Counted from the first letter of the stretch, positions 1,906 to 60,151 are shown. The stretch: 64,000 nt of DNA from a bacterium (GCA_963675755.2 CAXXMD010000002.1:1408001-1472000); one strand, 5' to 3'. A program made the numbers and translations. Notes: a model not told the origin generated them from the sequence alone.

Positions 1906-1914
1906 GAAAAATCC

Positions 1915-2859: not shown

Positions 2860-2957
2860 TACGAATACCAGCCTTTCAAATTATATCAATTTGCCTGAAC
2901 GAATAACAAATCAGGCAATGCTTATTATCTATATACCGCCACAAGCGGTGAATCTAT

Positions 2958-3782: not shown

Positions 3783-3803
3783 TTTTACTCAACTATTTCA
3801 TTA

Positions 3804-5210: not shown

Positions 5211-5224
5211 TTTTTACTCCTCAA

Positions 5225-6205: not shown

Positions 6206-6219
6206 GCAATTTCCTGTTT

Positions 6220-9329: not shown

Positions 9330-9345
9330 TTTACACTCCTGTTAT

Positions 9346-10107: not shown

Positions 10108-10187
10108 ATATAAACCTGATGTTACATATAATATTTCATTTGCTTATTATACTCATAATAAAATCAAAAATCAATAAAAATTAAAGA

Positions 10188-10226
10188 TAATCGAAAGTAA
10201 TCGAAAGTAAATACTTTCGATTACTT
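10188..10226. promoter_or_regulatory. Candidate DeoR operator (direct plus inverted TAATCGAAAGT repeats); could also act as a terminator hairpin
   Basis: TAATCGAAAGT occurs at 10188 and 10198 (10-bp period). A perfect 15-bp inverted repeat AAGTAATCGAAAGTA-AA-TACTTTCGATTACTT spans 10195-10226, upstream of deoR. Confidence 0.6.
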
Positions 10227-10228
10227 GA

Positions 10229-12082: not shown

Positions 12083-12119
12083 TTCTTTTCCCTCTCTGAT
12101 TTTGAATAACAGTTCATTG

Positions 12120-14171: not shown

Positions 14172-14186
14172 CTCGTTTTATCCTTG

Positions 14187-16472: not shown

Positions 16473-16479
16473 CCTGATT

Positions 16480-18726: not shown

Positions 18727-18743
18727 GATTAAACAGATTTACA

Positions 18744-20300
18744 TCATACTTTATTAATTCGTGACCATCCACTTATTGTTAAATTATCATCAAGCTTGGT
18801 TGATTTGAACAAGAAACTGCTAAAATAGCCAACCACCATCAAAACCAGATGACTGTAAACACCCAGCATATACTTGTGCTGTGAAAAATTAAATTTACCC
18901 AAATCCAACAAGATCCGGGGTTCATCTCCAATAGGGAACTTTGTCGAAGTCAACACGGCCCAACCGGTAAACAGTATACAGGCAATAATTCCAATATTAG
19001 CTCCCTGACGGTTTGCCCGTTTGCTGAACAAACCCAGAATAAACAGTCCTGCAATACCTCCGGAAAAAATAGCATACAGTGTAAAAACAATACCCAAAAC
19101 ACCGGTATCACCTGCTTTGACATACAATGTTGCTACAATCATTGCTGCCAAACCAGACAAAAGTACTACAGTTCTCCCTATAACCATTTGCTGTTTTTCC
19201 GTACAATTGGGATTAAAGCGTTTATAATAATCTTCAACTCCAATAGCGGCAAGACAGTTGAGGTCAGAGTCCAGGCTTGATATAGCTGCCGCTACCAAAG
19301 CGGCAAGGATCAGCCCGATGACACCAACAGGGAGTTCTGACATGATAAAAATCGGGAAAACCGCATCAGGACGAATATCTGCTGGTAATACACCACTATT
19401 GATTTGATAAAATGAATACAAGGCTGTACCAATAAACATAAAAATAGCCCAAACAGGTACGCTTAAAAACACACCCATTAAAGCAGCTTTGATAGCACCT
19501 TTTTCAGAACGTGCGGTAAGATAGCGTTGAACAATGGTCTGGTCTGTTCCATATTTCTGAATTGCGTAAAATACACCGTTCAGTGCCATTACAATAAATG
19601 TCAGTTTTTTAAAATCCCAATCAAAGGGGCCAAAACCCATTTTGTGATTTTCCATAGCTATTCTGATTACTTCTGAAGGGCCTCCCTCTGGTATAAAAAG
19701 CAGAAAGGCCATACAAAGCAAACCGCCGCCTATGAGCATAAATCCCTGAAATACATCTAGCCAGATAACCGCCTCTATCCCCCCGAGCAACGTAAGCACA
19801 ACCACTGATACACCCAGCACCCAGATAATCATATAGGTACTGACACCCATAATGTTGGAAAGAGCAAGGGCAAGCAAAAAGAAAACAGTACCCATTTTTG
19901 AAAAATGAGCAAGTATAAATGCCAGCGAGCTGTACAAACGCGCCATAAATCCAAATCTTTTCTCAAAATACTCGTAAGCACTAATACCAATAACCTGACG
20001 GTACAAGGGGACAATAAATTTCACCAACGCAACCAAAACAATGGGTACCATTAATCCCTGGACAAGACGTATCCAGTTTGACGCATAGCCTTCTCCGGGA
20101 TAGGCCAAAAAAGTTACACTACTGATTAATGTAGCAAGGATTGACATGCCCACAGCCCATGAAGGGATCGATCCGCTGGCCGCAAAATACTTTTTGGTAT
20201 TATTTTGACCACGTGAGAAAAACGCTCCAAGGCCCAATGCAATCAAGAGCGAAACAAAAATGATGATATAGTCAATAATATGCAATGCAGGTTGTTCCAT
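18744..20300 (-). CDS. Sodium:solute symporter (SSS/SLC5, sialic-acid transporter SiaT-like)
   Basis: Motifs SILATLISSVTFLAYPG, SAYEYFEKRF, GGIEAVIWLD, DQTIVQRYL and AAAISSLDS. Confidence 0.9.
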   Translation of the reverse strand: MEQPALHIIDYIIIFVSLLIALGLGAFFSRGQNNTKKYFAASGSIPSWAVGMSILATLISSVTFLAYPGEGYASNWIRLVQGLMVPIVLVALVKFIVPLYRQVIGISAYEYFEKRFGFMARLYSSLAFILAHFSKMGTVFFLLALALSNIMGVSTYMIIWVLGVSVVVLTLLGGIEAVIWLDVFQGFMLIGGGLLCMAFLLFIPEGGPSEVIRIAMENHKMGFGPFDWDFKKLTFIVMALNGVFYAIQKYGTDQTIVQRYLTARSEKGAIKAALMGVFLSVPVWAIFMFIGTALYSFYQINSGVLPADIRPDAVFPIFIMSELPVGVIGLILAALVAAAISSLDSDLNCLAAIGVEDYYKRFNPNCTEKQQMVIGRTVVLLSGLAAMIVATLYVKAGDTGVLGIVFTLYAIFSGGIAGLFILGLFSKRANRQGANIGIIACILFTGWAVLTSTKFPIGDEPRILLDLGKFNFSQHKYMLGVYSHLVLMVVGYFSSFLFKSTKLDDNLTISGWSRINKV

Positions 20301-20329
20301 TTGCAGCTCCTATATTGGTAAAACGGATC

Positions 20330-21475
20330 CTAGATAAAATCAGGCCATTTATAACTACCCGGCTTGACAGTTAAATTTATTTCCGGGTGACAGGCAACGT
20401 TCATTCGAACAACGCCAGGCCCCAGCTCCTGAGTGGGTATAAATCTTTGCCATCCCATATGTCTTACAATAGCAGATGCAGTTGATCCGCCTTCTACAAA
20501 CAATTCATTTACTTTAAACTGGTCAAGAATTTTTGCTACAATTACGGTTACAAGCTCCAACAGTCTTTCAGTCAAATTTTCAATAGGCGGAAGACTTTGA
20601 CTAACGGCAATTACCAATTTTTCACATCCGTTTATTTCTTTTAATATATTGCTTACCCATTCATCAATCGCTTTTTCTTTATTCTTGAAATTTTCCAAAA
20701 AGGATGCGGGAATCTCGCCCAGAATGAATTGTTTTTGTCCAAACATCTTGATCGAGTTTACTCGATTAGGTGAATTACTGCCGCAAACACACAGGACATT
20801 TTTTGAAAAATCTGGCAAAGAATCAAGTTCGATTTCCTGACGCTCAAATTGAGAACCAAGTAACGCATCAAAATAATCAGAACTGCCTGCAGGCAGGGTA
20901 TTCGCTGGGTTGATATTTGTCCAGGATCTCATTTCCATGCTATTATTGCATTCGCCAATCACAATTCCGGTTTCGGGAATTCCCTGATCTACAGAACGAT
21001 ATTCTAAATGCACTCCATCTTGATCTGTAAATCGTTTTAAAACATCAGATACAGCTACAGGAAAATCAATATCTTGTGCAAATTCAGTTTCATGTAGAGG
21101 TACACCATGTATATAATAATGCCCACCATCAATAACCCGACCGGCAGAAGGATTTGCAGGTACAAGTAAAGCCAATGGTATATTTAATTGATCCATCATT
21201 TCTTTTATCTCTGGCAACAAATGTCCCCGAAGAACGGAATCAATCTTTTTATAAATCCAATCTGGTGTAAGATCTCTCAACATTGTTGCAATTTCAGCAA
21301 TCTGCTCAACTGCATTTTCTTCAGTAGATGACCGGGTATTGGAATCGATTATAAGCAAATCTGATTCACAACTGGAAATGGGCTTTGTACATATCTCAAC
21401 ACTTTTGCCATAACGAAGAGCAATCCCTCCCATCTCGGCACTTCCCGAAAAATCATCTGCTACTACTGCTATCAT
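20330..21475 (-). CDS. Four-carbon acid sugar kinase, DUF1537 family (DtnK/DenK-like)
   Basis: Motifs VVADDFSGSAE, YKKIDSVLRG, PANP..GR, CGS, GGST and KPGS. Adjacent to PdxA2. Confidence 0.88.
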   Translation of the reverse strand: MIAVVADDFSGSAEMGGIALRYGKSVEICTKPISSCESDLLIIDSNTRSSTEENAVEQIAEIATMLRDLTPDWIYKKIDSVLRGHLLPEIKEMMDQLNIPLALLVPANPSAGRVIDGGHYYIHGVPLHETEFAQDIDFPVAVSDVLKRFTDQDGVHLEYRSVDQGIPETGIVIGECNNSMEMRSWTNINPANTLPAGSSDYFDALLGSQFERQEIELDSLPDFSKNVLCVCGSNSPNRVNSIKMFGQKQFILGEIPASFLENFKNKEKAIDEWVSNILKEINGCEKLVIAVSQSLPPIENLTERLLELVTVIVAKILDQFKVNELFVEGGSTASAIVRHMGWQRFIPTQELGPGVVRMNVACHPEINLTVKPGSYKWPDFI

Positions 21476-21528
21476 TTACTACTCCTTGTCATCATCACTC
21501 TGATGAATTCTTTTACCACCTTTATAGT

Positions 21529-22569
21529 CTATTTCCTGCTCCTGGCCATTGTTACAGCATATTCAATAGCATAGATCAAAGCCATGGGACTTGCAATACC
21601 TTTACCCGCAATTTCAAATGCTGTTCCGTGATCCACTGAAGTTCTGATGATGGGCAATCCTAACGTAATATTCACGCCACTCACATTTTGCATCTGCTGT
21701 TTTTCATTATCCCATTTAAATCCTACCAGTTTGAATGGTATATGGCCCTGGTCATGATACATAGCAACACAGCCGTCATAATATCCACCAACTGCCTTGG
21801 GGAACAGGGTATCTGGTGGAACAGGACCTTCAGCATCAAGGCCCTCGGCAACAGCCTGTTCAATGGCGGGCCGAATGTGTTTTATCTCTTCATCACCAAA
21901 AAGCCCACCATCCCCCGAATGTGGATTCAATCCTGCCACACCAATCCGGGGATTAGATACGCCAAATTGCCTGCATGCCGTATCCATAAGTTTAATTACA
22001 TCCACAATACGGTCTTTTGTTATGATTTCACAAGCCTGATGCAATGAAACATGTGTGGTTACATGTATTACCCGAAAATTCTCATGCGCAAGCAGCATGG
22101 CAACACTGGGTGTATTGGTTAAATCAGCATATATCTCGGTATGACCGGAATAATGATGCCCCGCAAGATTTAATGCTTCCTTGTGCAGGGGCCCGGTAAC
22201 TGTGGCGTCTATTTCGTCTTCAAGAGCCAGTTCAATGACTTTTTTTACAGATTGAAAAGCGGCATTGCCGCACATGGCACTGATTTCGCCAAATCTAAAC
22301 TGGTCCATATTCACCAGATCCAGATCAATGATATCAATGGTACCAAATTCAAACCTCGCATCACTTACACGAGTACTTTTGTGGATATGAAAATCTTTTC
22401 CACTAAAAGTCATTGATTGCTGCAATATATTTGCATCCCCTATAACCAGGGGCTTGCACTTTTCATAAATATCAGGAATGGCCAATGCCTTTATAATGAT
22501 CTCTGGTCCTATCCCAGCCGGATCACCCATTGAAATTCCCAATATGGGTTTTGATTTAACATTTGACAT
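21529..22569 (-). CDS. pdxA: PdxA-family dehydrogenase (PdxA2, D-threonate/D-erythronate 4-phosphate dehydrogenase)
   Basis: Motifs MGDPAGIGPE, GHTE, HVTTH, GLNPH, AMYHDQG and IRTSVDHGTAF. Next to a DUF1537 kinase. Confidence 0.93.
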   Translation of the reverse strand: MSNVKSKPILGISMGDPAGIGPEIIIKALAIPDIYEKCKPLVIGDANILQQSMTFSGKDFHIHKSTRVSDARFEFGTIDIIDLDLVNMDQFRFGEISAMCGNAAFQSVKKVIELALEDEIDATVTGPLHKEALNLAGHHYSGHTEIYADLTNTPSVAMLLAHENFRVIHVTTHVSLHQACEIITKDRIVDVIKLMDTACRQFGVSNPRIGVAGLNPHSGDGGLFGDEEIKHIRPAIEQAVAEGLDAEGPVPPDTLFPKAVGGYYDGCVAMYHDQGHIPFKLVGFKWDNEKQQMQNVSGVNITLGLPIIRTSVDHGTAFEIAGKGIASPMALIYAIEYAVTMARSRK

Positions 22570-23484
22570 CTATTCTTCTCTGTAATTCATCAATTCTTTT
22601 AATGCGATTTCAATATTTTGTGTCTCGGATAAAGAAAGAGCTAACAGCGGTGGCAACACAGCATTTTCACACAATCCGAGTGAATGCATGCATGCTTTGA
22701 GTGCTGCAAGAGACTGGCTTAGAATGCGATCTTTTTGATACACAAGAGATATATCATTGGTTATTTGCTGCAACGGTTCTGCCTGGTCTTGATCTCCTTT
22801 TATAGCCGCTTGGTACAAATCGCAATACATACCAGGAACCAGGTTACCTGTACTGGGCACAATTCCATCCGCACCATTAAAAAGTGCGTAAGTGGATTGA
22901 GCGGCCCAACCTATTAGAAAACTAAACTCACTATTCTCTTTCCACAGGGAAAGACATTTTTCCAAACGCTCTGGGTCCCGCTCAGAGTCTTTTAATCCTG
23001 CAATATTGGAGTGCTTACTCAACGTCTCCAGTACATCCAATGGAATGGACATCCCCGTTGTACCGGGGATATTGTAAACAATCAACGGTACAGGACTGGC
23101 ATCTGCAAGTTTCTCAAAATAGTTTAACATATGTTCCGGAGTTAATGGATAATATTCCGGTAAATGGGCTACCACTGCATCAACTCCCAAGTCTGCAAAC
23201 TGTCTGGCCATTTCAACACTGGTCTGAAAACAAGTACTATCAATACCTGCATAGGTAAGCTCTCGTTTGTTGGTCACTCTTACCATTTCCGAAACCAGTT
23301 TTACTTTTTGATCCAAAGGTATAGATGCCGCTTCTCCGGTTGTTCCCAAAACAAAGGGACTGGTTTGTTCAGCAACCAGATGCTCTGTAATTTTGGCAAC
23401 TGCGCTTTTATCTACCTCTCCCGAATCGGTAAAAGGTGATACCATCGGAACAACCACACCGCTGTATTTCTTTTTAATAGTCAA
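22570..23484 (-). CDS. DHDPS/NanA-family class I aldolase (2-keto-3-deoxy acid aldolase)
   Basis: Pyruvate-binding motif GTTGE, catalytic Tyr in VYNIP and Schiff-base Lys in GLKDS. Confidence 0.88.
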   Translation of the reverse strand: MTIKKKYSGVVVPMVSPFTDSGEVDKSAVAKITEHLVAEQTSPFVLGTTGEAASIPLDQKVKLVSEMVRVTNKRELTYAGIDSTCFQTSVEMARQFADLGVDAVVAHLPEYYPLTPEHMLNYFEKLADASPVPLIVYNIPGTTGMSIPLDVLETLSKHSNIAGLKDSERDPERLEKCLSLWKENSEFSFLIGWAAQSTYALFNGADGIVPSTGNLVPGMYCDLYQAAIKGDQDQAEPLQQITNDISLVYQKDRILSQSLAALKACMHSLGLCENAVLPPLLALSLSETQNIEIALKELMNYREE

Positions 23485-23497
23485 AATTCATCCCTGT

Positions 23498-24643
23498 TTA
23501 TAATGCATTCATATAGATTTCAGTGGCAATTTTTTTATCAATTGTAAGTGGATTATTTTTCAATAACCGGGTTACAGTTAACGCAGATTCAACCATTCCT
23601 GGAATATCATCCATTGTAATACCCAATTCCGACATTTTGAACGGTATATCTATATTTCTCATCAGGAATTTAAGCGATTCCACTCCGGCCATAGCAGTAT
23701 CTAAATCAGTACCAGCAAGATCTGCTCCCAATGCCAATGCAACCTGCGCAAAGCGCTCCGGTGCTGATGGTATGGTTGCTTGCATTACATATGGCATCAT
23801 AACCGCAATGGACAACCCATGGGGTACATGAAATTCACCACCTAACGGATATGCCAATGCATGCACTGCCGTTGTATTAACTGGCCCCAGGCACATACCG
23901 CCATACATACTTCCCAACGCTAATCTTGAACGGGCTTCTTTATCTCGTCCATTCTTCACCGCGGTTTCAAGATTTTCCGAAATATAGCGAATACCTTCAA
24001 GCGCATACATATCTACCATGGGATGTGCGTTAATATTGATATACGATTCAAGGCAATGTGATAAAGCATCTATGCCCGTATATGCAGTAACATTGGGTGG
24101 AACGGATAAAGCCAACAACGGATCTATATAGACCCGATCAGGTACCAGCCAGGGACTAATGATCCCTTTTTTCAGAGTATCACTTTCATCCAGCAATATA
24201 GAATTGGGAGACACTTCACTGCCCGTACCGGCGGTTGTTGGCAGACATGCCAGGAATATTTCCCTTCCCTGCAAATTACCAATGCCAATAGTATCATATA
24301 TATCCTGATTTCTGTTACAGAGTGCCGCCACAATCTTGGCCAGATCCATTACACTACCTCCGCCAATAGCAGCTACACTATCGATACTATGACTTGTTGC
24401 AATTTCCCGTATGCGCTCAGCATCGCGAACTGTGGGTTCACTGGCAAGATCATCAACAATAATTACAGTATCACAAGATTTTTGTAAAATTTTAATTTGT
24501 TCATCAATAACAGATACCAATGGTGCAATAGTTACAATTAATAAACTTTTAAACTCTAAAGATATAATATCATCTACAAACTGATCAATGCTGTTTTCTC
24601 CAAAAACAACATGACGGGGAAATGTAAAACTGGTATTTTTCAT
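23498..24643 (-). CDS. Iron-containing alcohol dehydrogenase (aldehyde reductase)
   Basis: GGGSVMD, PTTAGTGSE, DALSH, HALAY and PHG metal-binding motifs. Confidence 0.92.
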   Translation of the reverse strand: MKNTSFTFPRHVVFGENSIDQFVDDIISLEFKSLLIVTIAPLVSVIDEQIKILQKSCDTVIIVDDLASEPTVRDAERIREIATSHSIDSVAAIGGGSVMDLAKIVAALCNRNQDIYDTIGIGNLQGREIFLACLPTTAGTGSEVSPNSILLDESDTLKKGIISPWLVPDRVYIDPLLALSVPPNVTAYTGIDALSHCLESYININAHPMVDMYALEGIRYISENLETAVKNGRDKEARSRLALGSMYGGMCLGPVNTTAVHALAYPLGGEFHVPHGLSIAVMMPYVMQATIPSAPERFAQVALALGADLAGTDLDTAMAGVESLKFLMRNIDIPFKMSELGITMDDIPGMVESALTVTRLLKNNPLTIDKKIATEIYMNAL

Positions 24644-24668
24644 GATATAAAATGTATTTCTCCAAGTG

Positions 24669-26555
24669 TTAATAGTCAGTTCTAAAATTCTTTAAATAAT
24701 ATACAACCGGTGCAACAGGATCGTCAGGACCTTTTTCATCAAATCCCGGAACAAACTGATCACCGCTCTTGTATTCGGTCACATCATCGGTTAACCGATA
24801 ATCGCCTGTACGAAAGATAATCCGTTCGGGAACAGTCCCTTTGGCAGAAAAAGCAGCGTTTGTTACCAACTTTTTGCCATTTAATGATAAATTAAACTGT
24901 TCTTTTTTCGCGTCCAGATCGATTTTAACAGTATACCATTTCCCGGATTCTATTTCAGTAACTGATGTTGCATTATCATTCCCTTGTTTCACTAAAAGTG
25001 AACCGGTTGTATCAAATCTGGCCTGAACCAAACGTTCTCCTTTGGCAGACACAACTTCAACATCAAGCACCTGGTGCTGACATTCTGCATATAAATCAAA
25101 CGAGATTTGCTGATTTTCAGATTTGTTAAATACCCGAACTGCTTTGGCATAGTCATAGGGATCCACATCTTTGAGCATTAAACACTTTTCTGATGCATTG
25201 GGAGCCACAACGATTTCTACCGGGCACCATTGGGGACTGTAAATATTCCAGTCGGTTACTACACCTCCGGTTTCCATTTCATTAAAATTATCATCAATGG
25301 GACCTGTAACTTCTCCACATACAGGCACCGGTATGCGGGAAATCCACATATCTTCCTTACTCACTGAATATACTACCCAGAGGTCATCTCCCGGCGGGTT
25401 GCCATTACCTTCAATAATACCTCGTACATATTGTGGTCCGGGTCGTTTTTCACGTCCCCAAAATCTTTTGAGGGGTACTTCGCTGTGAACATTTAACAAA
25501 TTATCAAAATGGATTCCATCGTCACCGGTTGCAATACTGAGCGGATGTCTTGCCAAACCGGCAGTAGGATTATAAACAAGTGCGTACTGCCCGTTATCCA
25601 TACGCTGTGCCCAAATCTTTGCACCGCCATAAGACAGGGTATTGCACTGTACGGGTTCTGACCAGCTTTCGCCATGATCATAGCTCAAAGTAGTCCAGCG
25701 GGCTTTGAAAAAACCAACCAGTACACTGTCCGGCCGGGTATAATAACAAAAAGCCTGTCCCGGACTTTTCTCTCCATCATCCATGATCCAGGGTACACGA
25801 TAAAAATCATCCTTGTTTGCTGCGGTACGATCTTCTTCCCACCATTGTATGCGTTTGACCTTGTCATTTAAAAAAGCATCACAGGCAGATACAAAACCTT
25901 TATCATCAGATTCCGTATACATTGGGTAGGTCATGTCTTTCTCCCGCCCAAAGTTGGTTTTGATACTGTAAATGGGACCAAAGGTATTGTCCGTATAAAC
26001 TTCACGCACAACACGTCCTACACCATCACCTTTGTTACCACCATAAAAACCAAAAGCCAGCAGTCTGCCATCAGGGGCTACATAAAAAGCCATACGCTGG
26101 TGCATATGAATGAGATCTACCCAGTCGCCTTCTCCCGGCAAAAAATAGATGGGAAATATAACCTGAGGTTTGCTCCAGTTTTTGCCATCTTTAGAATGGG
26201 TAACAAGTGTTACGCCTGGTGGAATATGTTCACCAGTAGGATTTGACAGATAAATACAATAAAACATACCATTCCAATACGTCAGCATAGGCGCATGGTT
26301 ATAGGTCCACCCCATATCATCAGCCAGCTCGGGATGGGTCCGGTTGGCTCGTAATATCTGGTAATTCTGCACACCCACAGCGGGACGGAATTGTCCGTCA
26401 TGGTAACCGGAGTCATAATCACTGTTTGACGTAGTAACAGGACCAACATAACGTACCGGTTCAGATTTATCTCCGGGTTTAGCATAAATTTGGATAATAC
26501 TAAATAATACAATCAGCAGAATTGATATAATGTGTTCAATTTTTATTGGTTTCAT
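24669..26555 (-). CDS. GH143 Dha (2-keto-3-deoxy-D-lyxo-heptulosaric acid) hydrolase, BT1020 N-terminal-like
   Basis: Signal peptide; YHDGQ..P.VGV.N, RANR.HPE, GWTYNH.PML.YWNG, MHQR, AKIWAQR, GPQYVRGI.EGNG and KEDMWISRIPVP match the recalled N-terminal half of B. thetaiotaomicron BT1020. Asp-box repeats present. Confidence 0.85.
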   Translation of the reverse strand: MKPIKIEHIISILLIVLFSIIQIYAKPGDKSEPVRYVGPVTTSNSDYDSGYHDGQFRPAVGVQNYQILRANRTHPELADDMGWTYNHAPMLTYWNGMFYCIYLSNPTGEHIPPGVTLVTHSKDGKNWSKPQVIFPIYFLPGEGDWVDLIHMHQRMAFYVAPDGRLLAFGFYGGNKGDGVGRVVREVYTDNTFGPIYSIKTNFGREKDMTYPMYTESDDKGFVSACDAFLNDKVKRIQWWEEDRTAANKDDFYRVPWIMDDGEKSPGQAFCYYTRPDSVLVGFFKARWTTLSYDHGESWSEPVQCNTLSYGGAKIWAQRMDNGQYALVYNPTAGLARHPLSIATGDDGIHFDNLLNVHSEVPLKRFWGREKRPGPQYVRGIIEGNGNPPGDDLWVVYSVSKEDMWISRIPVPVCGEVTGPIDDNFNEMETGGVVTDWNIYSPQWCPVEIVVAPNASEKCLMLKDVDPYDYAKAVRVFNKSENQQISFDLYAECQHQVLDVEVVSAKGERLVQARFDTTGSLLVKQGNDNATSVTEIESGKWYTVKIDLDAKKEQFNLSLNGKKLVTNAAFSAKGTVPERIIFRTGDYRLTDDVTEYKSGDQFVPGFDEKGPDDPVAPVVYYLKNFRTDY

Positions 26556-26579
26556 GTGTTTTCCATAATTTTAAATTTA

Positions 26580-29285
26580 TTAAAAAAGCTCAGCAATACC
26601 TTCGGAAAGGAAATGATAGCTACCGGATTCAAGTTCAAATATTGCAATTTCACCTTGCATTTCTATAAAATGTACACCACCAGATTGTTCAACAGGTAGC
26701 ATATTCTCCTTGACCTCATCGATACTAAATGCAGGTAAATGCAATTCCGCGGTTGTATTTGCGGGTATGGTCACATCCAGAACCAAATCATTGTCACGGA
26801 TTTTCCAACTTGACTCGATTCGACCATACAATGATGTATAATGCGAATTGACATACTGAATGATCTTGTTAGGTTGTGGTTTGATGAGTATCTTTTTAAA
26901 TCCTGCTTCAGCGTTATCTATACCCGCCATAACCGCAAACATCCATTCACAAACAGAACCAAAGGCATAATGACTGAATGAATTCATACCATCCGGATTA
27001 AACCCGCCATCTATGGTATAACTGTTCCAGCGTTCCCAAATTGTGGTAGCGCCGTTTACAACCGAATAGCCCCATGAGGGGAAATCTGTATTCACAAGCA
27101 GTTGATAAGCAAGATCTGTATATCCGAAACGGGTCAACGAGGGCAAAAGATGTTTAACCCCCAGAAAACCGGTTGCCAGATTACCATTATTTTCTTTAAT
27201 CAAATCAGCAAGATACTTTGCAGCCCTTGCCTCTTGCTCTGGATCCAGCAAACCGAAATACAATGCCAATGTATAACTGGTTTGTGTATGTTCAGAGATT
27301 CGACCATTACTGGCCACATATTTATCTTTGAATGCCAGACGGATTTTTTCAAAAAGATCAGTGTAATATTGGATATCACTATCTTTACCCAAAACAGCAG
27401 CAATTTCAGTCATCAACTTGACATCATAGGCATAAAACGCAGTGGCCAAATAATCAAGCGAGGTTTGTGCACCAATCGCCAGCCAGTCACCCCAGTCATT
27501 TTCATTTGCCGTCAGCAGGTATCCATTAGAGCGATTGTTCAAATATTCTATAAATTTTCGCATTGCCGGATACATGTACTCGAGCAGACGTTTATCTCCA
27601 TACATCTGATAGATAACCCAGGGTACGATAACTCCGGCATCTACCCATCCTGATGCCTGTTCTTTTTTGAATACAAATGAATACGGCGCCCAATCGGTAA
27701 AGATTCCATCCTCTTTTTGGGCATCTACCAGATCAACCAACCATTTGCGCATAAAAGATGCAATATTTGCATTATAAGCTGCGGAGCGGACATAAATTTG
27801 TGCATCTCCACTCCATCCACAACGTTCATCTCGTTGGGGACAATCTGTTGGCACTTCAAAGAAATTGGAACGCTGTGTCCACAAAATATTGCTGTATAAT
27901 TGGTTTACCATATCATCTGAACAATCCAGTCGTCCGGCAGGTTGAATATCAGAATTTACAATAATACCGGTTACGGTATGTTCATCCGGGACAAATGACA
28001 AGCCGCGTACCTCAACATACTGAAAACCGTGATATGTGAAACGTGGCTGCCAGAGTTCAGTACCATTTCCATTCAAAATATAAGTATCCGTTGCTCTTGC
28101 AAATCGCAGGTTCTCTGTCATTAAACTTCCATCAGGATGGAGCATTTCACCATAACGGATTACAATCTTGCTGCCAGCCTCACCGGATACTTTGATGCGT
28201 GCAAAACCTGCAAAATTTTGTCCCATATTAAAAAGGTACACACCTTTTTCAGGCTCGGTTATTTCAATGGGTGTCATCTCTCCGGTTCTGCGCACAGGTA
28301 CCGTAGGATATCCTTGTAAAACACCTTTTGCAGGTTCAATAAGATCAACCGGTTTCCAGGTTTTCTCAATATATCCCGCGTGGTTCCAGCCTAAAAGTTC
28401 GCTGCAGGCGTCATACGTTTCGCCCATGAACAGGTCCGCTTCTTTAATCGGGCCTATGGCAGACGTCCATGACGAATCAGAACAAATGACCTGCTTCTCC
28501 CCATTTTCCAGCTCCACCTCCAGTTGACACAGCAACGCAGGGGTATCACCATATTGATTACGGGGATTGGGGATATTTTGATCCAGACAAAAGCCTACAT
28601 AACCGGCATACCAACCGTCAGCAAGAATGGCACCCAGGGCATTTTCGCCTTTGAACAAAAGGTGCGTCACATCAAAGGTGTGATAATAGATACGCTTGTT
28701 GTAATCTGTCCAACCCGGCACAAACATCCGGTTACCGACTTTGTCACCATTGATAGACGGTTCAACCAGTCCCAGTGCGGTAACATACAATGTAGCCTGA
28801 ACCGGATTTTCATCGAGTTCAAAGGTTTTCCTCAAATACGGGCTGGGCGGTAATCTTAGATCTTTGCCGCGAAATTCAGCAGGATAGTCGTCCAAATTCC
28901 GGTTCCGGCCTATCCATTGGGCCTGCCAGTCATTTTTTCCCAGCAATCCCATGGACCACATGTTAATATCACTCCAGGGTGACCATGTATCATTTTTGTC
29001 CCAAATTCTGACCTGCCAATAACAGTGCATGCGGGATTTCAAAGGTTTTCCCTTGTATGGAACAAGCACACACTGATCACTCGTTACTTTACCGGAATCC
29101 CAGAGATCAGCAAAGTCCCGTTTCAACAAATCCTGACCGGAAGCCACACGAATCTGGTACGCGGTCTGTTTTTGACCGCGTTGTTCAGATTCAACAATCC
29201 AGCTCAAACCTGGTTGAGTAATATCGATCCCAAGAGGATTATCGAGGTACTCACAGGTCAGTTTACTAACACGAACATCTGTCAT
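26580..29285 (-). CDS. GH78 alpha-L-rhamnosidase, apparently cytoplasmic (no signal peptide)
   Basis: Motifs LTCEYL.NPLGID, DLWDSGKV, PTDCPQRDER.GW.GDA, GDWL, GATTIWERW and MNSFSHYAFG. Confidence 0.93.
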   Translation of the reverse strand: MTDVRVSKLTCEYLDNPLGIDITQPGLSWIVESEQRGQKQTAYQIRVASGQDLLKRDFADLWDSGKVTSDQCVLVPYKGKPLKSRMHCYWQVRIWDKNDTWSPWSDINMWSMGLLGKNDWQAQWIGRNRNLDDYPAEFRGKDLRLPPSPYLRKTFELDENPVQATLYVTALGLVEPSINGDKVGNRMFVPGWTDYNKRIYYHTFDVTHLLFKGENALGAILADGWYAGYVGFCLDQNIPNPRNQYGDTPALLCQLEVELENGEKQVICSDSSWTSAIGPIKEADLFMGETYDACSELLGWNHAGYIEKTWKPVDLIEPAKGVLQGYPTVPVRRTGEMTPIEITEPEKGVYLFNMGQNFAGFARIKVSGEAGSKIVIRYGEMLHPDGSLMTENLRFARATDTYILNGNGTELWQPRFTYHGFQYVEVRGLSFVPDEHTVTGIIVNSDIQPAGRLDCSDDMVNQLYSNILWTQRSNFFEVPTDCPQRDERCGWSGDAQIYVRSAAYNANIASFMRKWLVDLVDAQKEDGIFTDWAPYSFVFKKEQASGWVDAGVIVPWVIYQMYGDKRLLEYMYPAMRKFIEYLNNRSNGYLLTANENDWGDWLAIGAQTSLDYLATAFYAYDVKLMTEIAAVLGKDSDIQYYTDLFEKIRLAFKDKYVASNGRISEHTQTSYTLALYFGLLDPEQEARAAKYLADLIKENNGNLATGFLGVKHLLPSLTRFGYTDLAYQLLVNTDFPSWGYSVVNGATTIWERWNSYTIDGGFNPDGMNSFSHYAFGSVCEWMFAVMAGIDNAEAGFKKILIKPQPNKIIQYVNSHYTSLYGRIESSWKIRDNDLVLDVTIPANTTAELHLPAFSIDEVKENMLPVEQSGGVHFIEMQGEIAIFELESGSYHFLSEGIAELF

Positions 29286-32386: not shown

Positions 32387-32427
32387 CCCTTTACTCCTGT
32401 TTATATAAATTTGATTAATTCTCAACA

Positions 32428-34461: not shown

Positions 34462-34487
34462 ATATTTCAAACCTCCGATTTAAAAAA

Positions 34488-42162: not shown

Positions 42163-42199
42163 ATTCCCATCTCCCAAAAAGTAAACATCAACTTTAATC

Positions 42200-49056: not shown

Positions 49057-50073
49057 TCAATTTCGGTTTAACAGATTTTCAACAATTTTGGGATCAACAC
49101 TAAATACATGACCATGCTTGGCTCCTTTCGGAAAATTCAACTTTTCCGAAATATCCTGCCAGTTTTTCAAATCTGTTGATACAACTGCACCGTAATAGGG
49201 TTGGCTTCCGTGATGATCATAATATACAAAAACGGAATCACTTTTTTGTATGGCACAAGGACCTTCATTTTGCCATTTTCCGGATCCGGGTCCGTTACCT
49301 GTAATGGTCTCAGAAATATTGGTATAGGATCCGTAGGGGCTGTTGCTCTCTGCCATGCGGATATTCTGGTAACCGGGATGATATTCCACAGCATCATTAC
49401 CGCGTTCATCTTTGAAAAACAGACAATATTTGTCATTGGTTTTAAGAATAAATGCATCAATGCAGCTATGATAGGGATTAAATAGCACCTGCGGTTCTGA
49501 AAAGGATTGAAAATCGCGGGTTGTAACATACCAGATTCTATGATTTCGTGTAGTAGTGGGATCATCATCCCGGGGAAAGGTATTGTCAGACAAGGTTGTA
49601 GACCAGTAAACAATCCATTGCGATTCCTGGTTATCAAAAAACAATTTGGGAGCCCAGCAATTTTCAGCCGGTTTGTCTTTCATAACCGGGATCAATTTCT
49701 CATCCGTCCAGTGAATCAAGTCTGTTGAATGAGCATATCCAATATCTTTACGGTCCCAACCGCTAGTCCAAATGAGATGAAAACCAGCATTTTGAGGATC
49801 CGGAGCGACAAATGCATCCCGCATGATTTTAAAAGAATGGTCTTGATTTTTAAATTCGGTGCCAACGGAAGGTTCAAATATTACACCCGGTACTTTTTGC
49901 CAATTGTACAAATCCTTGCTATATTCAAACTTTAATCCACCTATACCGTTAGGTTCTCTAAAATTAGAATGTAAATATACTTTTTCATCAGATGATGTAC
50001 TCGGGTTTTTGTTAACACAAGCAAGGGATAAAATAAACAAAACAACCAAAATCCGGATTAGAAAAACTTTCAT
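49057..50073 (-). CDS. GH43 alpha-L-arabinofuranosidase (GH43_18/BT1021-like), lipoprotein
   Basis: Lipobox LAC; MRD, FHLIWT.GW, S.DLIHW, NCWAP, NHRIWY.TT.DF, ID and EGP five-bladed propeller motifs. Confidence 0.8.
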   Translation of the reverse strand: MKVFLIRILVVLFILSLACVNKNPSTSSDEKVYLHSNFREPNGIGGLKFEYSKDLYNWQKVPGVIFEPSVGTEFKNQDHSFKIMRDAFVAPDPQNAGFHLIWTSGWDRKDIGYAHSTDLIHWTDEKLIPVMKDKPAENCWAPKLFFDNQESQWIVYWSTTLSDNTFPRDDDPTTTRNHRIWYVTTRDFQSFSEPQVLFNPYHSCIDAFILKTNDKYCLFFKDERGNDAVEYHPGYQNIRMAESNSPYGSYTNISETITGNGPGSGKWQNEGPCAIQKSDSVFVYYDHHGSQPYYGAVVSTDLKNWQDISEKLNFPKGAKHGHVFSVDPKIVENLLNRN

Positions 50074-50282
50074 TTCCTCAACCTCTTGAGAATAAAACAT
50101 TATTACAATTTTCCGGGAAATTCGAATATTATTTTACAATTGAATTGTCTTTTCTTTCAATATATCTCAAACTCGTATATGACAGATTCATCAAGTCAAG
50201 GGGCCTTAATATAATATATTCTTCATGATATGAAAAGCAACCGCAAAATAACATGATTTGTAAAACAATAGAAAATAGATAT

Positions 50283-58597: not shown

Positions 58598-60151
58598 TTA
58601 AATATCCAAAGTTATTGATGTTAACTCTAACTGTCTGTCAACCAATTTTTTATCAACATAAATAGACAATCCTTTCCCGTGTTCGTATTTTTTTCCAGAT
58701 TCATCCCAAATAATTGTCAAATTATGACCTCTAACCTTAACATTGTCCAGACAAAACCAAGCCCACTGTTTTTCAGGAACAAGTGGTGAAATCTTAACAT
58801 GCCCATCTTTTTGAGCTTGTAAACCAACAAGCCCGGATATAATCAAATCACAAAAAGTTGAATGATTGTAAAAGATACTTCGAGGGTTATCTCCCTTTAA
58901 CCACTCTCCGGTGGTTTCATCCTGGTATTCCCCAATATAAGGATAACCATTTTTCTGATGCGAATGGGCATAAAGTTTTAAAGCATCAAAATAATGTTTT
59001 TTTAACATTGAATGGTTTTTGTAATGATGCAACAAATTAGACAATCCATTCAAAGTTTGAGAGGTTGCAAATGGCCAAATAGCCCCATCCCATTCACAAC
59101 TTCCTGTTCCGTGAGTTCTAAACTGAGGGTGCCTCATCTCGGCGGTTGTCAACCCCCATGGTGCAGCAAAACCCTGTTTATCCAAAATCTGGTTCCATGC
59201 CTGCGCATACAGCTGTTCATCATAAGGCAGATCAAACATCCAGGGAATGTAACCAATCTCTTCTCTTGCATCAGACAAGGAACCATCCGTAAAACGGACT
59301 TTGAAAAAATGCGCATTAGAATCCCAAAGTTTATCATGAACCCATTTTCTCAGATGCTCTGCCCTTTGCTCAAAATCAGATACTATTTCATCACGACCTG
59401 CTAATCGTCCAATTTCAGCAATGGCTAAAGCATTGGCATACATATAGCTATTGATTGTAGGACGTGCATTCTGTTGTTTTCGTGACCCGCTAATAGATTC
59501 TTCCATGCCATCTTTAACATCATGCTGCCAAAACAACCCCGAATCCAGTTGACGTTCATGTTCCCAACGTTCATAGTCTTTAATAAAATCATCCAATAAA
59601 TCAACTACAAAACTCGTATCACCATTCACTAAAAACCGTTGATAGATCGCATCAGGAGCCCAACTGCTAAATTGGTGAATATGTTCCTGGGGACCATTAT
59701 TATTTTTTCTGAACCAGAATTGGATATATTGATCAATATACTGGTCATCCATTAACCATCTGCCTTCTGCAATGTGGTGCCCTAACGCACAACTAATTGT
59801 ATTATACTTGCCGGCATGTTTGACAGGGGTAATAAATTCCGTAAATACAAATCCATCTGGAGTTTGTTTGAGATGTTTTCTAAATGTCCACCAGCGGTAA
59901 TAATAAATCTTTTCTAATTCTTTATCAGGACATTCAAACAAGGGGATATTTTGACCAAGCCAGGTTTTGGCATTGGCATCAGGAATGAAATTGACTACTG
60001 CTTCTGTGTTATTTTCATTAAATTCATGAATATATTGGAAAAAAATAGAGGAATCCAGTACAGAGCCCGACAACTCTGCAGACTCTTTAACTTGAGTGCA
60101 AGAAGTAAAAGGAAAAAAGAAAACTATCAAGATCATCCAAACAAACCGCAT
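58598..60151 (-). CDS. GH142 beta-L-arabinofuranosidase (BT1020 C-terminal-like), lipoprotein
   Basis: NIPLFECP...E..YYYRWW..RKH, CALGHHI.E.RW, WQ.DV.DGMEESISG.R....RPTINSYMY, REEIGYIPW, CEWDGAIWPFA and YNHSTF.DL match the recalled C-terminal half of BT1020. Confidence 0.82.
   Translation of the reverse strand: MRFVWMILIVFFFPFTSCTQVKESAELSGSVLDSSIFFQYIHEFNENNTEAVVNFIPDANAKTWLGQNIPLFECPDKELEKIYYYRWWTFRKHLKQTPDGFVFTEFITPVKHAGKYNTISCALGHHIAEGRWLMDDQYIDQYIQFWFRKNNNGPQEHIHQFSSWAPDAIYQRFLVNGDTSFVVDLLDDFIKDYERWEHERQLDSGLFWQHDVKDGMEESISGSRKQQNARPTINSYMYANALAIAEIGRLAGRDEIVSDFEQRAEHLRKWVHDKLWDSNAHFFKVRFTDGSLSDAREEIGYIPWMFDLPYDEQLYAQAWNQILDKQGFAAPWGLTTAEMRHPQFRTHGTGSCEWDGAIWPFATSQTLNGLSNLLHHYKNHSMLKKHYFDALKLYAHSHQKNGYPYIGEYQDETTGEWLKGDNPRSIFYNHSTFCDLIISGLVGLQAQKDGHVKISPLVPEKQWAWFCLDNVKVRGHNLTIIWDESGKKYEHGKGLSIYVDKKLVDRQLELTSITLDI

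What the first reader, a model, noticed from the sequence alone, without database searches (positions are those of the whole stretch)
18744..26555. Candidate complete catabolic pathway for the RG-II sugar Dha: GH143, Fe-ADH, DHDPS-type aldolase, PdxA2, DUF1537 kinase and SSS symporter
Seen: six closely spaced co-directional genes (gaps 0-53 bp), with the five metabolic/transport genes directly behind a GH143-like hydrolase. Established: GH143 (BT1020 N-terminus; Ndeh et al. 2017) releases Dha from RG-II. DUF1537 kinase plus PdxA2 convert D-threonate or D-erythronate to DHAP + CO2 (Zhang et al. 2016). DHDPS/NanA-family aldolases cleave 2-keto-3-deoxy acids to pyruvate and an aldehyde. Inference: C3-C4 retro-aldol of Dha (C7 diacid, D-lyxo) gives pyruvate and D-threuronate. 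Fe-ADH reduction of that aldehyde gives D-threonate, the known DtnK/PdxA2 substrate. Every gene gets a role and the stereochemistry closes. I know of no characterised Dha catabolic pathway but cannot check the literature here.
Basis: partly seen in the sequence, partly recalled or inferred. Interest (0 to 1): 0.92.

Follow-up and report, generated by a model that had tools for sequence, protein, structure and literature searches.

The report
Candidate Dha (pectin sugar) breakdown operon
Next to the enzyme that cuts the rare acidic sugar Dha off the plant pectin RG-II lies a five-gene set, conserved in many bacteria, that most likely imports Dha and converts it to pyruvate, DHAP and CO2, a pathway I found described in no searched paper.

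Summary
Six co-directional minus-strand genes with gaps of 0-53 bp encode a stand-alone GH143 (homologue of the BT1020 Dha-hydrolase domain), an Fe-ADH, a DHDPS-family class I aldolase, a PdxA2-clade dehydrogenase, a DUF1537 kinase and a SiaT-like Na+ symporter.

- All five metabolic and transport genes occur in 54 of 80 aldolase-anchored loci from several phyla.
- GH143 lies within 10 kb in 28 of 80, often followed by GH142, the other half of BT1020.
- Five further loci that I picked all have GH143 19-30 kb downstream.
- In the window's phylum, 14 of 21 genomes with the aldolase have GH143, against 6 of 146 without it.

B. thetaiotaomicron has GH143 but no DUF1537 gene. My literature searches found no Dha catabolic pathway.

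No enzyme activity has been tested. Seven loci carry a split transketolase in place of the Fe-ADH, which I cannot explain.

Verdict: a well-supported, directly testable prediction of a new acid-sugar pathway. Confidence is about 0.55 for the exact steps and about 0.7 for Dha as the substrate.

The parts
24669..26555 (-). Stand-alone GH143 (Dha-hydrolase homologue) with a hydrophobic, signal-peptide-like N-terminus. It is the only GH143 in the genome.
   Evidence: PF24067 at E 1.8e-81. Matches BT1020/5mqr residues 38-600 at E 5e-121. One match in G000. N-terminus printed.
23498..24643 (-). Group III iron alcohol dehydrogenase. Proposed role (inferred): D-threuronate reductase producing D-threonate.
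   Evidence: PF00465 plus PF25137. Below every NCBIfam equivalog cut-off. Best PDB match only 191 bits. Present in 62 of 80 loci, mostly directly upstream of the aldolase.
22570..23484 (-). DHDPS/NanA-family class I aldolase of a distinct clade. Proposed role (inferred): Dha aldolase giving pyruvate plus D-threuronate.
   Evidence: PF00701 at E 1.9e-49. dapA model 151.7 bits against a 206 cut-off, nanA models also below cut-off. K165, Y137 and G47-T-T-G-E51 are invariant in A1. Orthologues score 378 bits or more and paralogues 222 or less. The true dapA is elsewhere at 379 bits.
21529..22569 (-). PdxA2-clade dehydrogenase. Proposed role: 4-phospho-D-threonate to DHAP plus CO2.
   Evidence: PF04166 at E 2.4e-107. 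PDB 2hi1 (PdxA2) 292 bits and 6e85 (D-threonate 4-phosphate dehydrogenase) 289 bits, against E. coli PdxA 1ps6 at 188 bits. It is the only PdxA-family gene in the genome.
20330..21475 (-). Divergent DUF1537 four-carbon acid-sugar kinase (381 aa). Proposed role: D-threonate 4-kinase.
   Evidence: SBD_N plus NBD_C. Best NCBIfam hit is D-threonate kinase at E 1.2e-35, N-terminal domain only and below cut-off. PDB 4xfm at E 3.7e-18. Only DUF1537 gene in the genome. Present in 68 of 80 loci, mostly directly after PdxA.
18744..20300 (-). SiaT-like sodium:solute symporter. Proposed role: Dha importer.
   Evidence: Best PDB match is SiaT 5nv9 at E 7.4e-79. The carboxylate-binding S60 and T63 are kept, R135 is replaced by K, and Q250 is replaced by K249, which is invariant in 70 of 70 orthologues.
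58598..60151 (-). GH142 beta-L-arabinofuranosidase homologue. It would remove the L-Araf cap on Dha in RG-II side chain D.
   Evidence: The L079 orthologue matches BT1020 residues 618-1098 at E 1.3e-229. It finds G000:C2:1466607-1468079, which is window 58607-60079, at E 1.3e-168. 51% identical to the GH142 that follows GH143 in L032.
60169..61170 (-). LacI-family regulator, orthologous to the LacI found beside the block in 43 loci, directly upstream of it in most. Candidate regulator of the Dha genes.
   Evidence: Pfam LacI plus Peripla_BP. All 43 blastp hits fall in cluster 5, best 59% identity. Cluster 5 positions.
26580..29285 (-). GH78 alpha-L-rhamnosidase, 24 bp upstream of GH143 (RG-II context).
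   Evidence: Five rhamnosidase Pfam domains, E 1.6e-119.
49057..50100 (-). GH43-like protein, homologous to the gene that sits between GH140 and GH143 in 10 loci.
   Evidence: PF04616. 37% identical to cluster 13 members. Positions.

Best explanation

Proposed steps:
1. Outside the cytoplasm, GH142 removes the beta-L-arabinofuranose cap and the exported GH143 releases free Dha. Homology is shown; activity is known only for BT1020.
2. The SiaT-like Na+ symporter imports Dha (inferred).
3. The DHDPS-family aldolase forms a Schiff base at C2 and cleaves C3-C4, giving pyruvate plus the four-carbon aldehyde-acid D-threuronate (inferred).
4. The Fe-ADH reduces the aldehyde with NAD(P)H to D-threonate (inferred).
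5. The DUF1537 kinase makes 4-phospho-D-threonate, and the PdxA2-type enzyme oxidises and decarboxylates it to DHAP plus CO2. This is the known chemistry of the two families; specificity here is inferred.

The net reaction is Dha plus ATP giving pyruvate, DHAP, CO2 and ADP, and it is redox-neutral. A LacI-family repressor that travels with the block probably controls it.
For: Identity of the parts: (see parts).

Conserved block. An aldolase alignment retrieved 80 loci. All five genes occur in 54 of 80, mostly in one order, and four occur in a further 11 of 80.

Physical link to Dha release.
- GH143 is the commonest CAZyme neighbour: 28 of 80 loci, and 23 of the 52 loci of at least 20 kb. It lies 1-9 kb from the aldolase.
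- In 10 loci GH142 is present, directly after GH143 in 8 and two genes further on in L046.
- Five loci without GH143 in the fetched 10 kb (L019, L025, L035, L041, L053, chosen by me) all have a GH143 19-30 kb downstream. For four it is clearly on the same replicon and strand.

Co-occurrence across genomes.
- In the window's phylum (167 genomes), 21 have the aldolase orthologue, 20 have GH143 and 14 have both. Fisher p = 4e-11, but related genomes are not independent.
- In 11 of those 14 the two genes share a contig within 33 kb.
- In the Bacteroidota sample (400 genomes without the centre genome), 3 of 4 aldolase carriers have GH143 against 13 of 396 others.

Transporter. The nearest solved relative is the sialic-acid symporter. 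Its carboxylate-binding Ser and Thr are kept, and two conserved lysines (K135 in 60 of 70 orthologues, K249 in 70 of 70) would suit a dicarboxylate (the dicarboxylate reading is my inference).

PdxA2 clade membership. PdxA2 is described as serving organic-acid catabolism, not PLP synthesis (passages of PMC9997740).

Aldehyde intermediate. The Fe-ADH (62 loci) and a split transketolase (7 loci) occupy the slot upstream of the aldolase and never co-occur. Both enzyme types use aldehydes.

Chemistry (my derivation). Dha C4-C7 with C5-OH left and C6-OH right gives D-threuronate and then D-threonate. The DapA aldol adduct is itself a 2-oxo-4-hydroxy C7 diacid, so a DapA-like fold suits Dha.
Against: - No enzyme, transport or expression data exist. 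No RNA run is listed for this DNA.
- The kinase scores 123 bits against the DtnK cut-off of 450. PdxA scores 330 against 583 for the D-threonate-4-P dehydrogenase equivalog.
- The Fe-ADH and the aldolase have no close characterised relative.
- Seven of 80 loci have a split transketolase instead of the Fe-ADH. Three of them keep PdxA and DUF1537. The five genomes tested have no Fe-ADH orthologue, so the reduction step is not universal.
- Some genomes carry the aldolase or block without a detectable GH143: 7 of 21 in the window's phylum, 1 of 4 in Bacteroidota, plus the Hephaestia and Ignavibacteriales genomes.
- Most GH143 carriers in the Bacteroidota sample lack the block (13 of 16).
- The block's PdxA is the genome's only PdxA homologue while PdxJ is present, so it may also serve PLP synthesis. 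PdxS is present as well.
- The DapA residue that binds the distal carboxylate is Thr142 here. The residue number in DapA is recalled; T142 comes.
Confidence: 0.55

Rival explanations
1. The substrate is still Dha, but the order of steps differs. The PdxA-like enzyme first oxidises C5 and removes C7 of unphosphorylated Dha, giving a 3-deoxy-2,5-hexodiulosonate. The Fe-ADH reduces that to 2-keto-3-deoxy-D-galactonate. DUF1537 phosphorylates C6. The DHDPS-type aldolase then cleaves KDPGal to pyruvate plus glyceraldehyde-3-phosphate.
For: All five genes still get a role, and the stereochemistry (C4-OH left) leads to the galacto series by my derivation. The aldolase also hits the archaeal bifunctional KDPG/KDPGal aldolase model at E 7.3e-31. 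All the GH143 and GH142 linkage evidence applies equally.
Against: PdxA is about as close to PdxA2 enzymes that act on 4-phospho C4 acids as those enzymes' family allows (289-304 bits), and the printed alignments show long identical blocks. DUF1537 kinases with assigned functions act on C4 and related acids (NCBIfam names; ApnO paper passages), not on KDGal. A transketolase replacing a ketoreductase is harder to rationalise than one replacing an aldehyde reductase.
Confidence: 0.08
2. The block catabolises a different RG-II or pectin-derived sugar, such as Kdo, aceric acid or apiose. It lies near GH143 only because all RG-II genes cluster.
For: Other RG-II enzymes also occur nearby: GH140-like in 16 loci, GH28 in 13, BNR/sialidase-like in 10, GH2 in 10 and GH78 in 4. 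GH78 sits directly upstream in the window. DUF1537 kinases also act in D-apionate routes. Split transketolases, as in the apiose transketolase route (legend seen), sit beside the aldolase in 7 loci.
Against: GH143 is the most frequent CAZyme neighbour and, with GH142, the most tightly placed. Kdo cleavage would give D-arabinose, which leaves PdxA2 and DUF1537 without a role. ApnO has a KARI-like fold and the text search of that paper found no mention of PdxA, and apionate's C3 is a tertiary alcohol. DHDPS-family enzymes make or cleave pyruvate adducts, which neither apiose nor aceric acid can supply directly (established family chemistry). The transporter resembles a 2-keto-3-deoxy-acid carrier. 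The window carries a separate candidate apiose cluster at 409-10107.
Confidence: 0.14
3. The PdxA2, DUF1537 and SSS genes simply scavenge free D-threonate or D-erythronate from the environment. The aldolase and Fe-ADH serve an unrelated function and are co-located by chance.
For: PdxA2 plus DUF1537 is a known self-sufficient tetronate module (NCBIfam names). Some loci carry only the aldolase and SSS (L003, L005, L024, L054).
Against: All five genes occur together in 54 of 80 loci from several phyla, mostly in one order. The aldolase-SSS pair is the most conserved core, so the SSS travels with the aldolase rather than with the kinase. There is strong GH143 and GH142 linkage.
Confidence: 0.06

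Closest known systems
D-threonate catabolism by DtnK (DUF1537) plus PdxA2 (Zhang et al. 2016, PNAS). The paper was not held; I know it from NCBIfam and PDB names and from citing papers.
   Same: An adjacent PdxA2-clade dehydrogenase and two-domain DUF1537 kinase. The proposed end products are DHAP plus CO2.
   Different: Here the pair is embedded behind an aldolase and an Fe-ADH that would make D-threonate inside the cell from a C7 diacid. The kinase is short (381 aa) and fails the DtnK equivalog cut-off. The transporter is SiaT-like.
Galactarate/glucarate lower pathway GarL-GarR-GarK: aldolase, then tartronate-semialdehyde reductase, then glycerate kinase (recalled, not checked here).
   Same: The same logic: a 2-keto-3-deoxy diacid is split to pyruvate plus an aldehyde-acid, which is reduced and then phosphorylated.
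   Different: The substrate is one carbon longer. The aldolase is class I DHDPS-type rather than class II HpcH-type, the reductase is an Fe-ADH, the kinase is DUF1537, and there is an extra oxidative decarboxylation.
Sialic acid uptake and cleavage by SiaT/NanT plus NanA.
   Same: An SSS symporter whose nearest solved relative is SiaT (E 7.4e-79), paired with a NanA/DHDPS-family lyase acting on a 2-keto-3-deoxy sugar acid released by a sialidase-fold hydrolase.
   Different: NanA models score below cut-off. The pocket residues F78, Q82, F243, N247 and Q250 of SiaT are changed, with two conserved lysines. The downstream enzymes are different.
BT1020 of Bacteroides thetaiotaomicron, a GH143-GH142 fusion that acts on RG-II side chain D (Ndeh et al. 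2017). The paper was not held; activities are as listed in the review PMC13501991, passages seen.
   Same: The window protein aligns to BT1020 residues 38-600, and the window GH142 relates to residues 618-1098.
   Different: Here the two domains are separate genes about 32 kb apart. B. thetaiotaomicron has no DUF1537 gene, so it lacks the catabolic block.
DapA (4-hydroxy-tetrahydrodipicolinate synthase).
   Same: It is the best-scoring characterised relative of the aldolase. Its aldol adduct of pyruvate and aspartate semialdehyde is a 2-oxo-4-hydroxy C7 diacid, close to Dha (established chemistry).
   Different: It scores below the dapA cut-off, and a true dapA exists elsewhere in the genome. 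The position of the ASA-binding arginine is Thr here. The proposed direction is cleavage.

Membership tests
GH143 (Dha hydrolase, BT1020 N-terminal domain) | Sequence homology to the BT1020 N-terminal beta-propeller plus CBM region | tested here: met
   PF24067 at 273.7 bits against a cut-off of 27. 5mqr residues 38-600 at E 5e-121.
GH143 (Dha hydrolase, BT1020 N-terminal domain) | Catalytic residues and Dha-releasing activity | not testable with these tools
   The primary paper was not held, so I did not check residues. Activity needs an assay.
PdxA2 / D-threonate-4-phosphate dehydrogenase | Closer to PdxA2 than to biosynthetic PdxA | tested here: met
   2hi1 at 292 bits, 6e85 at 289 bits and 4jqp at 304 bits, against 1ps6 at 188 bits.
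PdxA2 / D-threonate-4-phosphate dehydrogenase | NCBIfam equivalog NF002891 cut-off (583 bits) | tested here: not met
   330.5 bits. It is therefore a PdxA2-clade member, not a certified equivalog.
PdxA2 / D-threonate-4-phosphate dehydrogenase | Adjacent DUF1537 kinase gene | tested here: met
   The gap is 53 bp in the window. Both genes are present in 68 of 80 loci, mostly adjacent in that order.
DUF1537 four-carbon acid-sugar kinases (DtnK) | Two-domain architecture SBD_N plus NBD_C | tested here: met
   PF07005 at E 1.7e-32 and PF17042 at E 2.9e-08.
DUF1537 four-carbon acid-sugar kinases (DtnK) | DtnK equivalog NF047819 cut-off (450 bits) | tested here: not met
   123.3 bits, N-terminal domain only. 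Still the best-scoring named model.
DHDPS/NanA class I pyruvate aldolases | Pfam DHDPS fold with the Schiff-base lysine, catalytic tyrosine and GTTGE motif | tested here: met
   PF00701 at 168 bits. K165, Y137 and G47-E51 are invariant in 28 sequences. The roles of these residues are assigned from recall of NanA and DapA.
DapA / NanA / KdgD equivalogs | Curated NCBIfam cut-offs | tested here: not met
   dapA 151.7 against 206. nanA 113 against 281 and 87 against 382. KdgD 56.7 against 374. A true dapA lies at G000:C2:1238611-1239462.
SiaT-type sialic acid SSS symporters | Substrate-binding residues T58, S60, T63, Q82 and R135 (PMC5931594, passages seen) | tested here: inconclusive
   S60 and T63 are kept. 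T58 is L, Q82 is G and R135 is K. It is a relative of SiaT, not an orthologue.
Group III Fe-ADH (FucO, 4-hydroxybutyrate dehydrogenase and others) | Pfam Fe-ADH domains; equivalog cut-offs | tested here: inconclusive
   The family domains are met. All 17 NCBIfam models score below cut-off; the best are lactaldehyde reductase (242 against 523) and ErcA (242 against 550).

The most novel reading that the evidence does not exclude
A complete, previously undescribed pathway for the RG-II and green-algal sugar Dha. It would include two new enzyme activities: a Dha aldolase (3-deoxy-D-lyxo-heptulosarate pyruvate-lyase) and a D-threuronate reductase. It would also include a Dha:Na+ symporter and a LacI-type Dha regulator. 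Together with GH142 and GH143 these would form a portable 'side-chain D' utilisation module spread across at least five phyla. A second branch would send the aldehyde intermediate through a split transketolase instead of the reductase.
Probability: 0.5. Interest if true: 0.8.

Novelty: new variant of a known kind. Interest (0 to 1): 0.74.

Why it matters
RG-II is often called the most complex known plant polysaccharide, and its depolymerisation in Bacteroides has been worked out enzyme by enzyme. The intracellular fate of its rare acidic sugars is largely unknown. I found no Dha pathway in the searched literature. A 2026 preprint on RG-II tools discusses only apiose and Kdo metabolism in the passages I saw.

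This locus gives a concrete five-gene hypothesis. Orthologues exist in cultured Pedobacter, Flavobacterium, Chitinophaga, Gaoshiqia and Mangrovibacterium. If confirmed, it would:
- assign function to a large DHDPS-family clade now annotated only generically ('dihydrodipicolinate synthase family protein' or dapA-type names where any name is given; 4812 relatives at E <= 0.001);
- assign function to a divergent DUF1537 clade and an Fe-ADH clade;
- explain why D-threonate genes sit in pectin loci;
- give markers for which microbes actually consume Dha rather than only release it. B. thetaiotaomicron, for example, has GH143 but no DUF1537 gene.

Tried and rejected
1. D-apionate pathway as a rival. 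I recalled ApnO as a PdxA-family enzyme. The 2026 JBC paper (abstract and passages) shows a KARI-like fold and a text search found no mention of PdxA, so I dropped that version.

2. Promoter and terminator scan of 9000-28900. It found 60 promoter-like sites against 57.5 expected and 21 terminator-like sites against 17.4 expected, which is uninformative. Operon boundaries remain undetermined.

3. Expression. No RNA holder is listed for window 18744-26555.

4. The 478-aa protein at 29471-30907 as a possible GH142. It has no Pfam or PDB match. The real GH142 is at 58598-60151.

5. Whether the transketolase beside the aldolase in 7 loci is the same as the window's split transketolase at 1915-3782. 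Identity is only 35-44%, which is inconclusive.

6. Whether a transketolase could turn D-threuronate into D-tagaturonate. By my derivation the acceptor's C2-OH has the configuration classical transketolases disfavour, so I left this as unexplained.

7. Aceric acid route (reduce, phosphorylate, PdxA-type decarboxylation, DHAP aldolase). Rejected because a DHDPS-type enzyme is pyruvate-dependent and the linkage is to GH143 and GH142, not GH127.

8. Structure prediction, complex prediction, ESM Atlas and the 1.84-billion-protein search were not run. The tools return no coordinates, so the results would not distinguish substrates.

9. Papers I could not read: Zhang 2016, Ndeh 2017 and Carter 2018. 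Statements about them rest on citing papers, database names or recall. Supplements were closed and not requested. The preprint's supplemental tables of RG-II loci might list this block.

10. Taxonomy of the window's organism was not determined. Its phylum holds 167 species genomes in the collection.

Full report
OBSERVATION

Their assignments are:
- Pfam identifies the first as a BT_1020-like beta-propeller (E 1.8e-81) with a sialidase-like CBM.
- The next five are an Fe-ADH, a DHDPS-family protein, PdxA, the two DUF1537 domains (SBD_N plus NBD_C) and an SSF symporter.
- The first protein aligns to residues 38-600 of BT1020 (PDB 5mqr) at E 5e-121. A review lists that GH143 domain as the validated Dha hydrolase of RG-II side chain D (PMC13501991, passages).
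- It has a hydrophobic N-terminus typical of an exported protein, and the five others do not.

The co-directional run continues on both sides, with GH78 24 bp upstream and two AXE1-like esterases 17 bp downstream. The whole 64-kb window is a pectin/RG-II island. It holds PL11, two GH28, GH43-like, GH142, a SusC-like receptor, a BNR/sialidase-like protein and GH140 and GH127 remnants.

WHAT EACH GENE IS

Aldolase.
- It scores below every curated equivalog cut-off: dapA 151.7 against 206, with the nanA and KdgD models lower.
- Its best solved relatives are DapA enzymes at 130 bits or less.
- The genome has a real dapA elsewhere at 379 bits.
- In an alignment of 28 of the 120 listed homologues, K165, Y137 and the GTTGE motif are invariant. 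I read these as the Schiff-base lysine, catalytic tyrosine and pyruvate-binding motif, by recall of NanA and DapA.
- The clade is sharply bounded. In 167 genomes, orthologues score 378 bits or more and paralogues 222 or less.

PdxA homologue.
- It is nearer to Salmonella PdxA2 (2hi1, 292 bits) and to a chain named D-threonate 4-phosphate dehydrogenase (6e85, 289 bits) than to E. coli PdxA (188 bits).
- It does not reach the NF002891 equivalog cut-off.

DUF1537 protein.
- It is short and divergent. Its best named model is D-threonate kinase, matched over the N-terminal domain only and below cut-off.

Fe-ADH.
- It has no close characterised relative.

Symporter.
- Its best solved relative is the sialic-acid transporter SiaT (5nv9, E 7.4e-79).
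- I used the SiaT paper's residue list (PMC5931594, passages) and the printed alignment. The carboxylate-binding S60 and T63 are kept, R135 becomes K, and Q250 becomes a lysine.
- That lysine (K249) is invariant in 70 of 70 orthologues. K135 occurs in 60 of 70, and R78 in only 23 of 70.
- Two conserved cationic residues in the pocket would suit a dicarboxylate. This is my inference.

Of these, 572 were confirmed relatives and the best 80 were kept with 10-kb flanks. By record title they come mostly from Bacteroidota. Others are labelled Sedimentisphaerales and Pirellulales, Pelagisphaera, Acidobacteriota, Calditrichota, Ignavibacteriales and Melioribacteraceae, Woeseiaceae and Hephaestia.

I analysed them by tblastn with the window proteins, and by ORF calling (1016 ORFs) with clustering. 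The results were:
- All five block genes occur in 54 of 80 loci, four in 11, three in 3, two in 7 and one in 5. Many of the incomplete loci are short contigs.
- The order is mostly Fe-ADH, aldolase, PdxA, DUF1537, SSS.
- A LacI-family gene lies beside the block in 43 loci, directly upstream of it in most.

Among the neighbours, GH143 is the most frequent CAZyme: 28 of 80 loci, and 23 of the 52 loci of at least 20 kb. It lies 1-9 kb from the aldolase. Pfam on cluster representatives named the other recurrent neighbours:
- SusC/SusD
- an apiosidase-like GH140 (16 loci)
- sulfatase-family (13 loci)
- GH28 (13 loci)
- GH2 (10 loci)
- BNR (10 loci)
- a GH43-like gene (10 loci)
- a GntP permease (7 loci)
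- an 'MGH1-like' protein (10 loci), directly after GH143 in 8 of them

That last protein matches BT1020 residues 618-1098 at E 1.3e-229. It is therefore GH142, the arabinofuranosidase half of BT1020. So in these loci both enzymes needed to free Dha from L-Araf-Dha sit beside the block.

The window has the same parts dispersed:
- GH142 at 58598-60151
- an orthologue of the block-associated LacI at 60169-61170, 59% identical, with all 43 hits in that cluster
- the GH43-like gene at 49057-50100

I then took five loci that lacked GH143 in the fetched flanks (L019, L025, L035, L041, L053). I picked them because they end in SusC/SusD on long contigs. All five genomes have a GH143 19-30 kb downstream of the aldolase. 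For four it is clearly on the same replicon and strand. For L025 the coordinates fit but I could not check the contig's identity.

CO-OCCURRENCE ACROSS GENOMES

Window's phylum (167 genomes):

| | GH143 present | GH143 absent |
|---|---|---|
| Aldolase orthologue present | 14 | 7 |
| Aldolase orthologue absent | 6 | 140 |

- The odds ratio is 47 and Fisher p = 4e-11. Relatedness inflates this figure.
- Several discordant genomes are only 78-88% complete.
- In 11 of the 14 concordant genomes the two genes share a contig within 33 kb, and in 9 of them within 8 kb.

Bacteroidota sample (400 genomes, excluding the centre genome, which was chosen because it has the block):
- GH143 occurs in 16 and the aldolase orthologue in 4.
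- Three of those 4 have GH143, against 13 of 396 others.
- Only up to 5 candidates per genome were scored in that run, so some aldolases may have been missed.

Results against a strict coupling:
- Most GH143 carriers in that sample lack the block.
- The Hephaestia and one Ignavibacteriales genome have block genes but no GH143.
- B. thetaiotaomicron, the model for RG-II degradation, has GH143 but no DUF1537 gene.

MECHANISM

I re-derived the chemistry from established stereochemical rules.
- Dha is D-lyxo, so in the Fischer projection C4-OH and C5-OH are on the left and C6-OH is on the right.
- Class I retro-aldol cleavage at C3-C4 gives pyruvate plus OHC-CHOH-CHOH-COOH with the D-threo configuration.
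- Reducing the aldehyde gives D-threonate, the substrate named for DtnK and PdxA2.
- The same derivation applied to Kdo gives D-arabinose, the known Kdo aldolase product. This checks the method.

The pathway is redox-neutral and parallels the GarL-GarR-GarK logic for C6 diacids (recalled). The normal DapA aldol adduct is a 2-oxo-4-hydroxy C7 diacid, so a DapA-derived fold is a natural scaffold for Dha.

What is shown: homologies, synteny and co-occurrence. What is inferred: every substrate assignment.

RIVALS

(a) Dha with PdxA acting first, leading to a KDGal route. This is stereochemically possible, but it needs both PdxA2 and DUF1537 to act outside their known substrate classes.

(b) Another RG-II sugar. 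Kdo leaves PdxA2 and DUF1537 without a role. Apionate cannot be oxidised at its tertiary C3, and ApnO is KARI-like with no mention of PdxA in that paper. Aceric acid cannot feed a pyruvate aldolase.

(c) Tetronate scavenging plus unrelated genes. The five-gene synteny and the aldolase-SSS core contradict this.

UNEXPLAINED

In 7 of 80 loci (L004, L007, L013, L020, L054, L068, L071) a split transketolase sits directly upstream of the aldolase, in the Fe-ADH slot. None of the 7 has the Fe-ADH. The five genomes tested have no Fe-ADH orthologue; one has a 31%-identical paralogue. Three of these loci keep PdxA, DUF1537 and SSS.

Both enzyme types use aldehydes, which fits an aldehyde product of the aldolase. 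However, I cannot name the transketolase product, and this weakens the claim that reduction to D-threonate is universal.

A sulfatase-family gene directly upstream of the block in several non-Bacteroidia loci is also unexplained.

One further caveat: the block's PdxA is the only PdxA-family gene in a genome that has PdxJ, and also PdxS. PdxA2 can perform the PdxA reaction (PMC9997740, passages), so a second role in PLP synthesis is possible.

NOVELTY

Searches for 'heptulosaric acid' with aldolase found 3 papers, and 'heptulosaric' with catabolism found 10. GH143 alone found 31, of which 30 were listed. Rhamnogalacturonan with Dha and threonate found 8. Threuronate and related terms found 1. 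Judged from listings and abstract starts, none describes a Dha catabolic route. The library lacks most subscription journals.

The 2026 RG-II preprint mentions metabolism of apiose and Kdo only, in the abstract and passages I saw.

Each enzyme family is known. What would be new is the pathway, two substrate specificities and the module architecture, so I rate it a new variant of a known kind.

Noticed in passing
window 409-10107 (minus strand): A second rare-sugar cluster: FGGY kinase (409-1905), split transketolase (1915-2859 and 2958-3782), L-fucose-isomerase-like protein (3804-5210), ABC permease and ATPase, DUF2291, periplasmic sugar-binding protein and a DeoR regulator. By recall it resembles the transketolase route for D-apiose. 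A 2026 paper's figure legend confirms only that such a route exists.
   Followed up: partly
window 30952-35158: A GH140 (apiosidase-like) gene is split into three overlapping ORFs (30952-31338, 31157-31894, 31584-32345). A GH127 appears only as fragments (32435-33031, 33297-33821). These are frameshifts or sequencing errors. The close relative L002 has a GH140 ORF that clusters with full-length ones.
   Followed up: partly
L004, L007, L013, L020, L054, L068, L071 (directly upstream of the aldolase): A split transketolase (about 291 plus 311 aa) replaces the Fe-ADH. The two never co-occur (7 loci against 62, none with both), and no Fe-ADH orthologue was found in the 5 genomes tested. It is only 35-44% identical to the window's own split transketolase.
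   Followed up: partly
13 of 80 loci, e.g. L008, L009, L011, L062, L070, L078, L080, L081; also L011:4826-7309: A sulfatase-family (PF00884) gene sits directly upstream of the Fe-ADH or the transketolase. One neighbour is an FGE-sulfatase plus BNR fusion. This is odd for RG-II, which is not known to be sulfated, and may point to another Dha- or Kdo-containing glycan.
   Followed up: no
window 39679-42243: An 854-aa protein has an N-terminal region like a pectate lyase (PDB 9buj, E 1.6e-43) and a C-terminal BNR_2 sialidase-like domain. Proteins matching it at 35-48% identity lie near the block in 10 loci. It may be a Kdo- or Dha-type hydrolase.
   Followed up: no
G000 whole genome: The block's PdxA2-like gene is the only PdxA-family gene in the genome, yet PdxJ is present (190 bits), as is PdxS (362 bits). 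It may double as the PdxA of a DXP-dependent PLP route.
   Followed up: partly
window 29471-30907: A 478-aa protein has no Pfam match and no PDB match. It is conserved next to GH78 in L002 (98% identity) and L018 (49% identity). It is possibly an unclassified RG-II enzyme.
   Followed up: no
7 loci, e.g. L006:6715-8037: A GntP-family acid-sugar permease lies between the SSS and GH143. It would be a second acid transporter in the module.
   Followed up: no
window 14187-18726: Two tandem esterases of about 750 aa with AXE1-like domains lie directly downstream of the symporter. In L002 the stretch matches the 14187-16472 esterase at 89% and the other at 50%.
   Followed up: no
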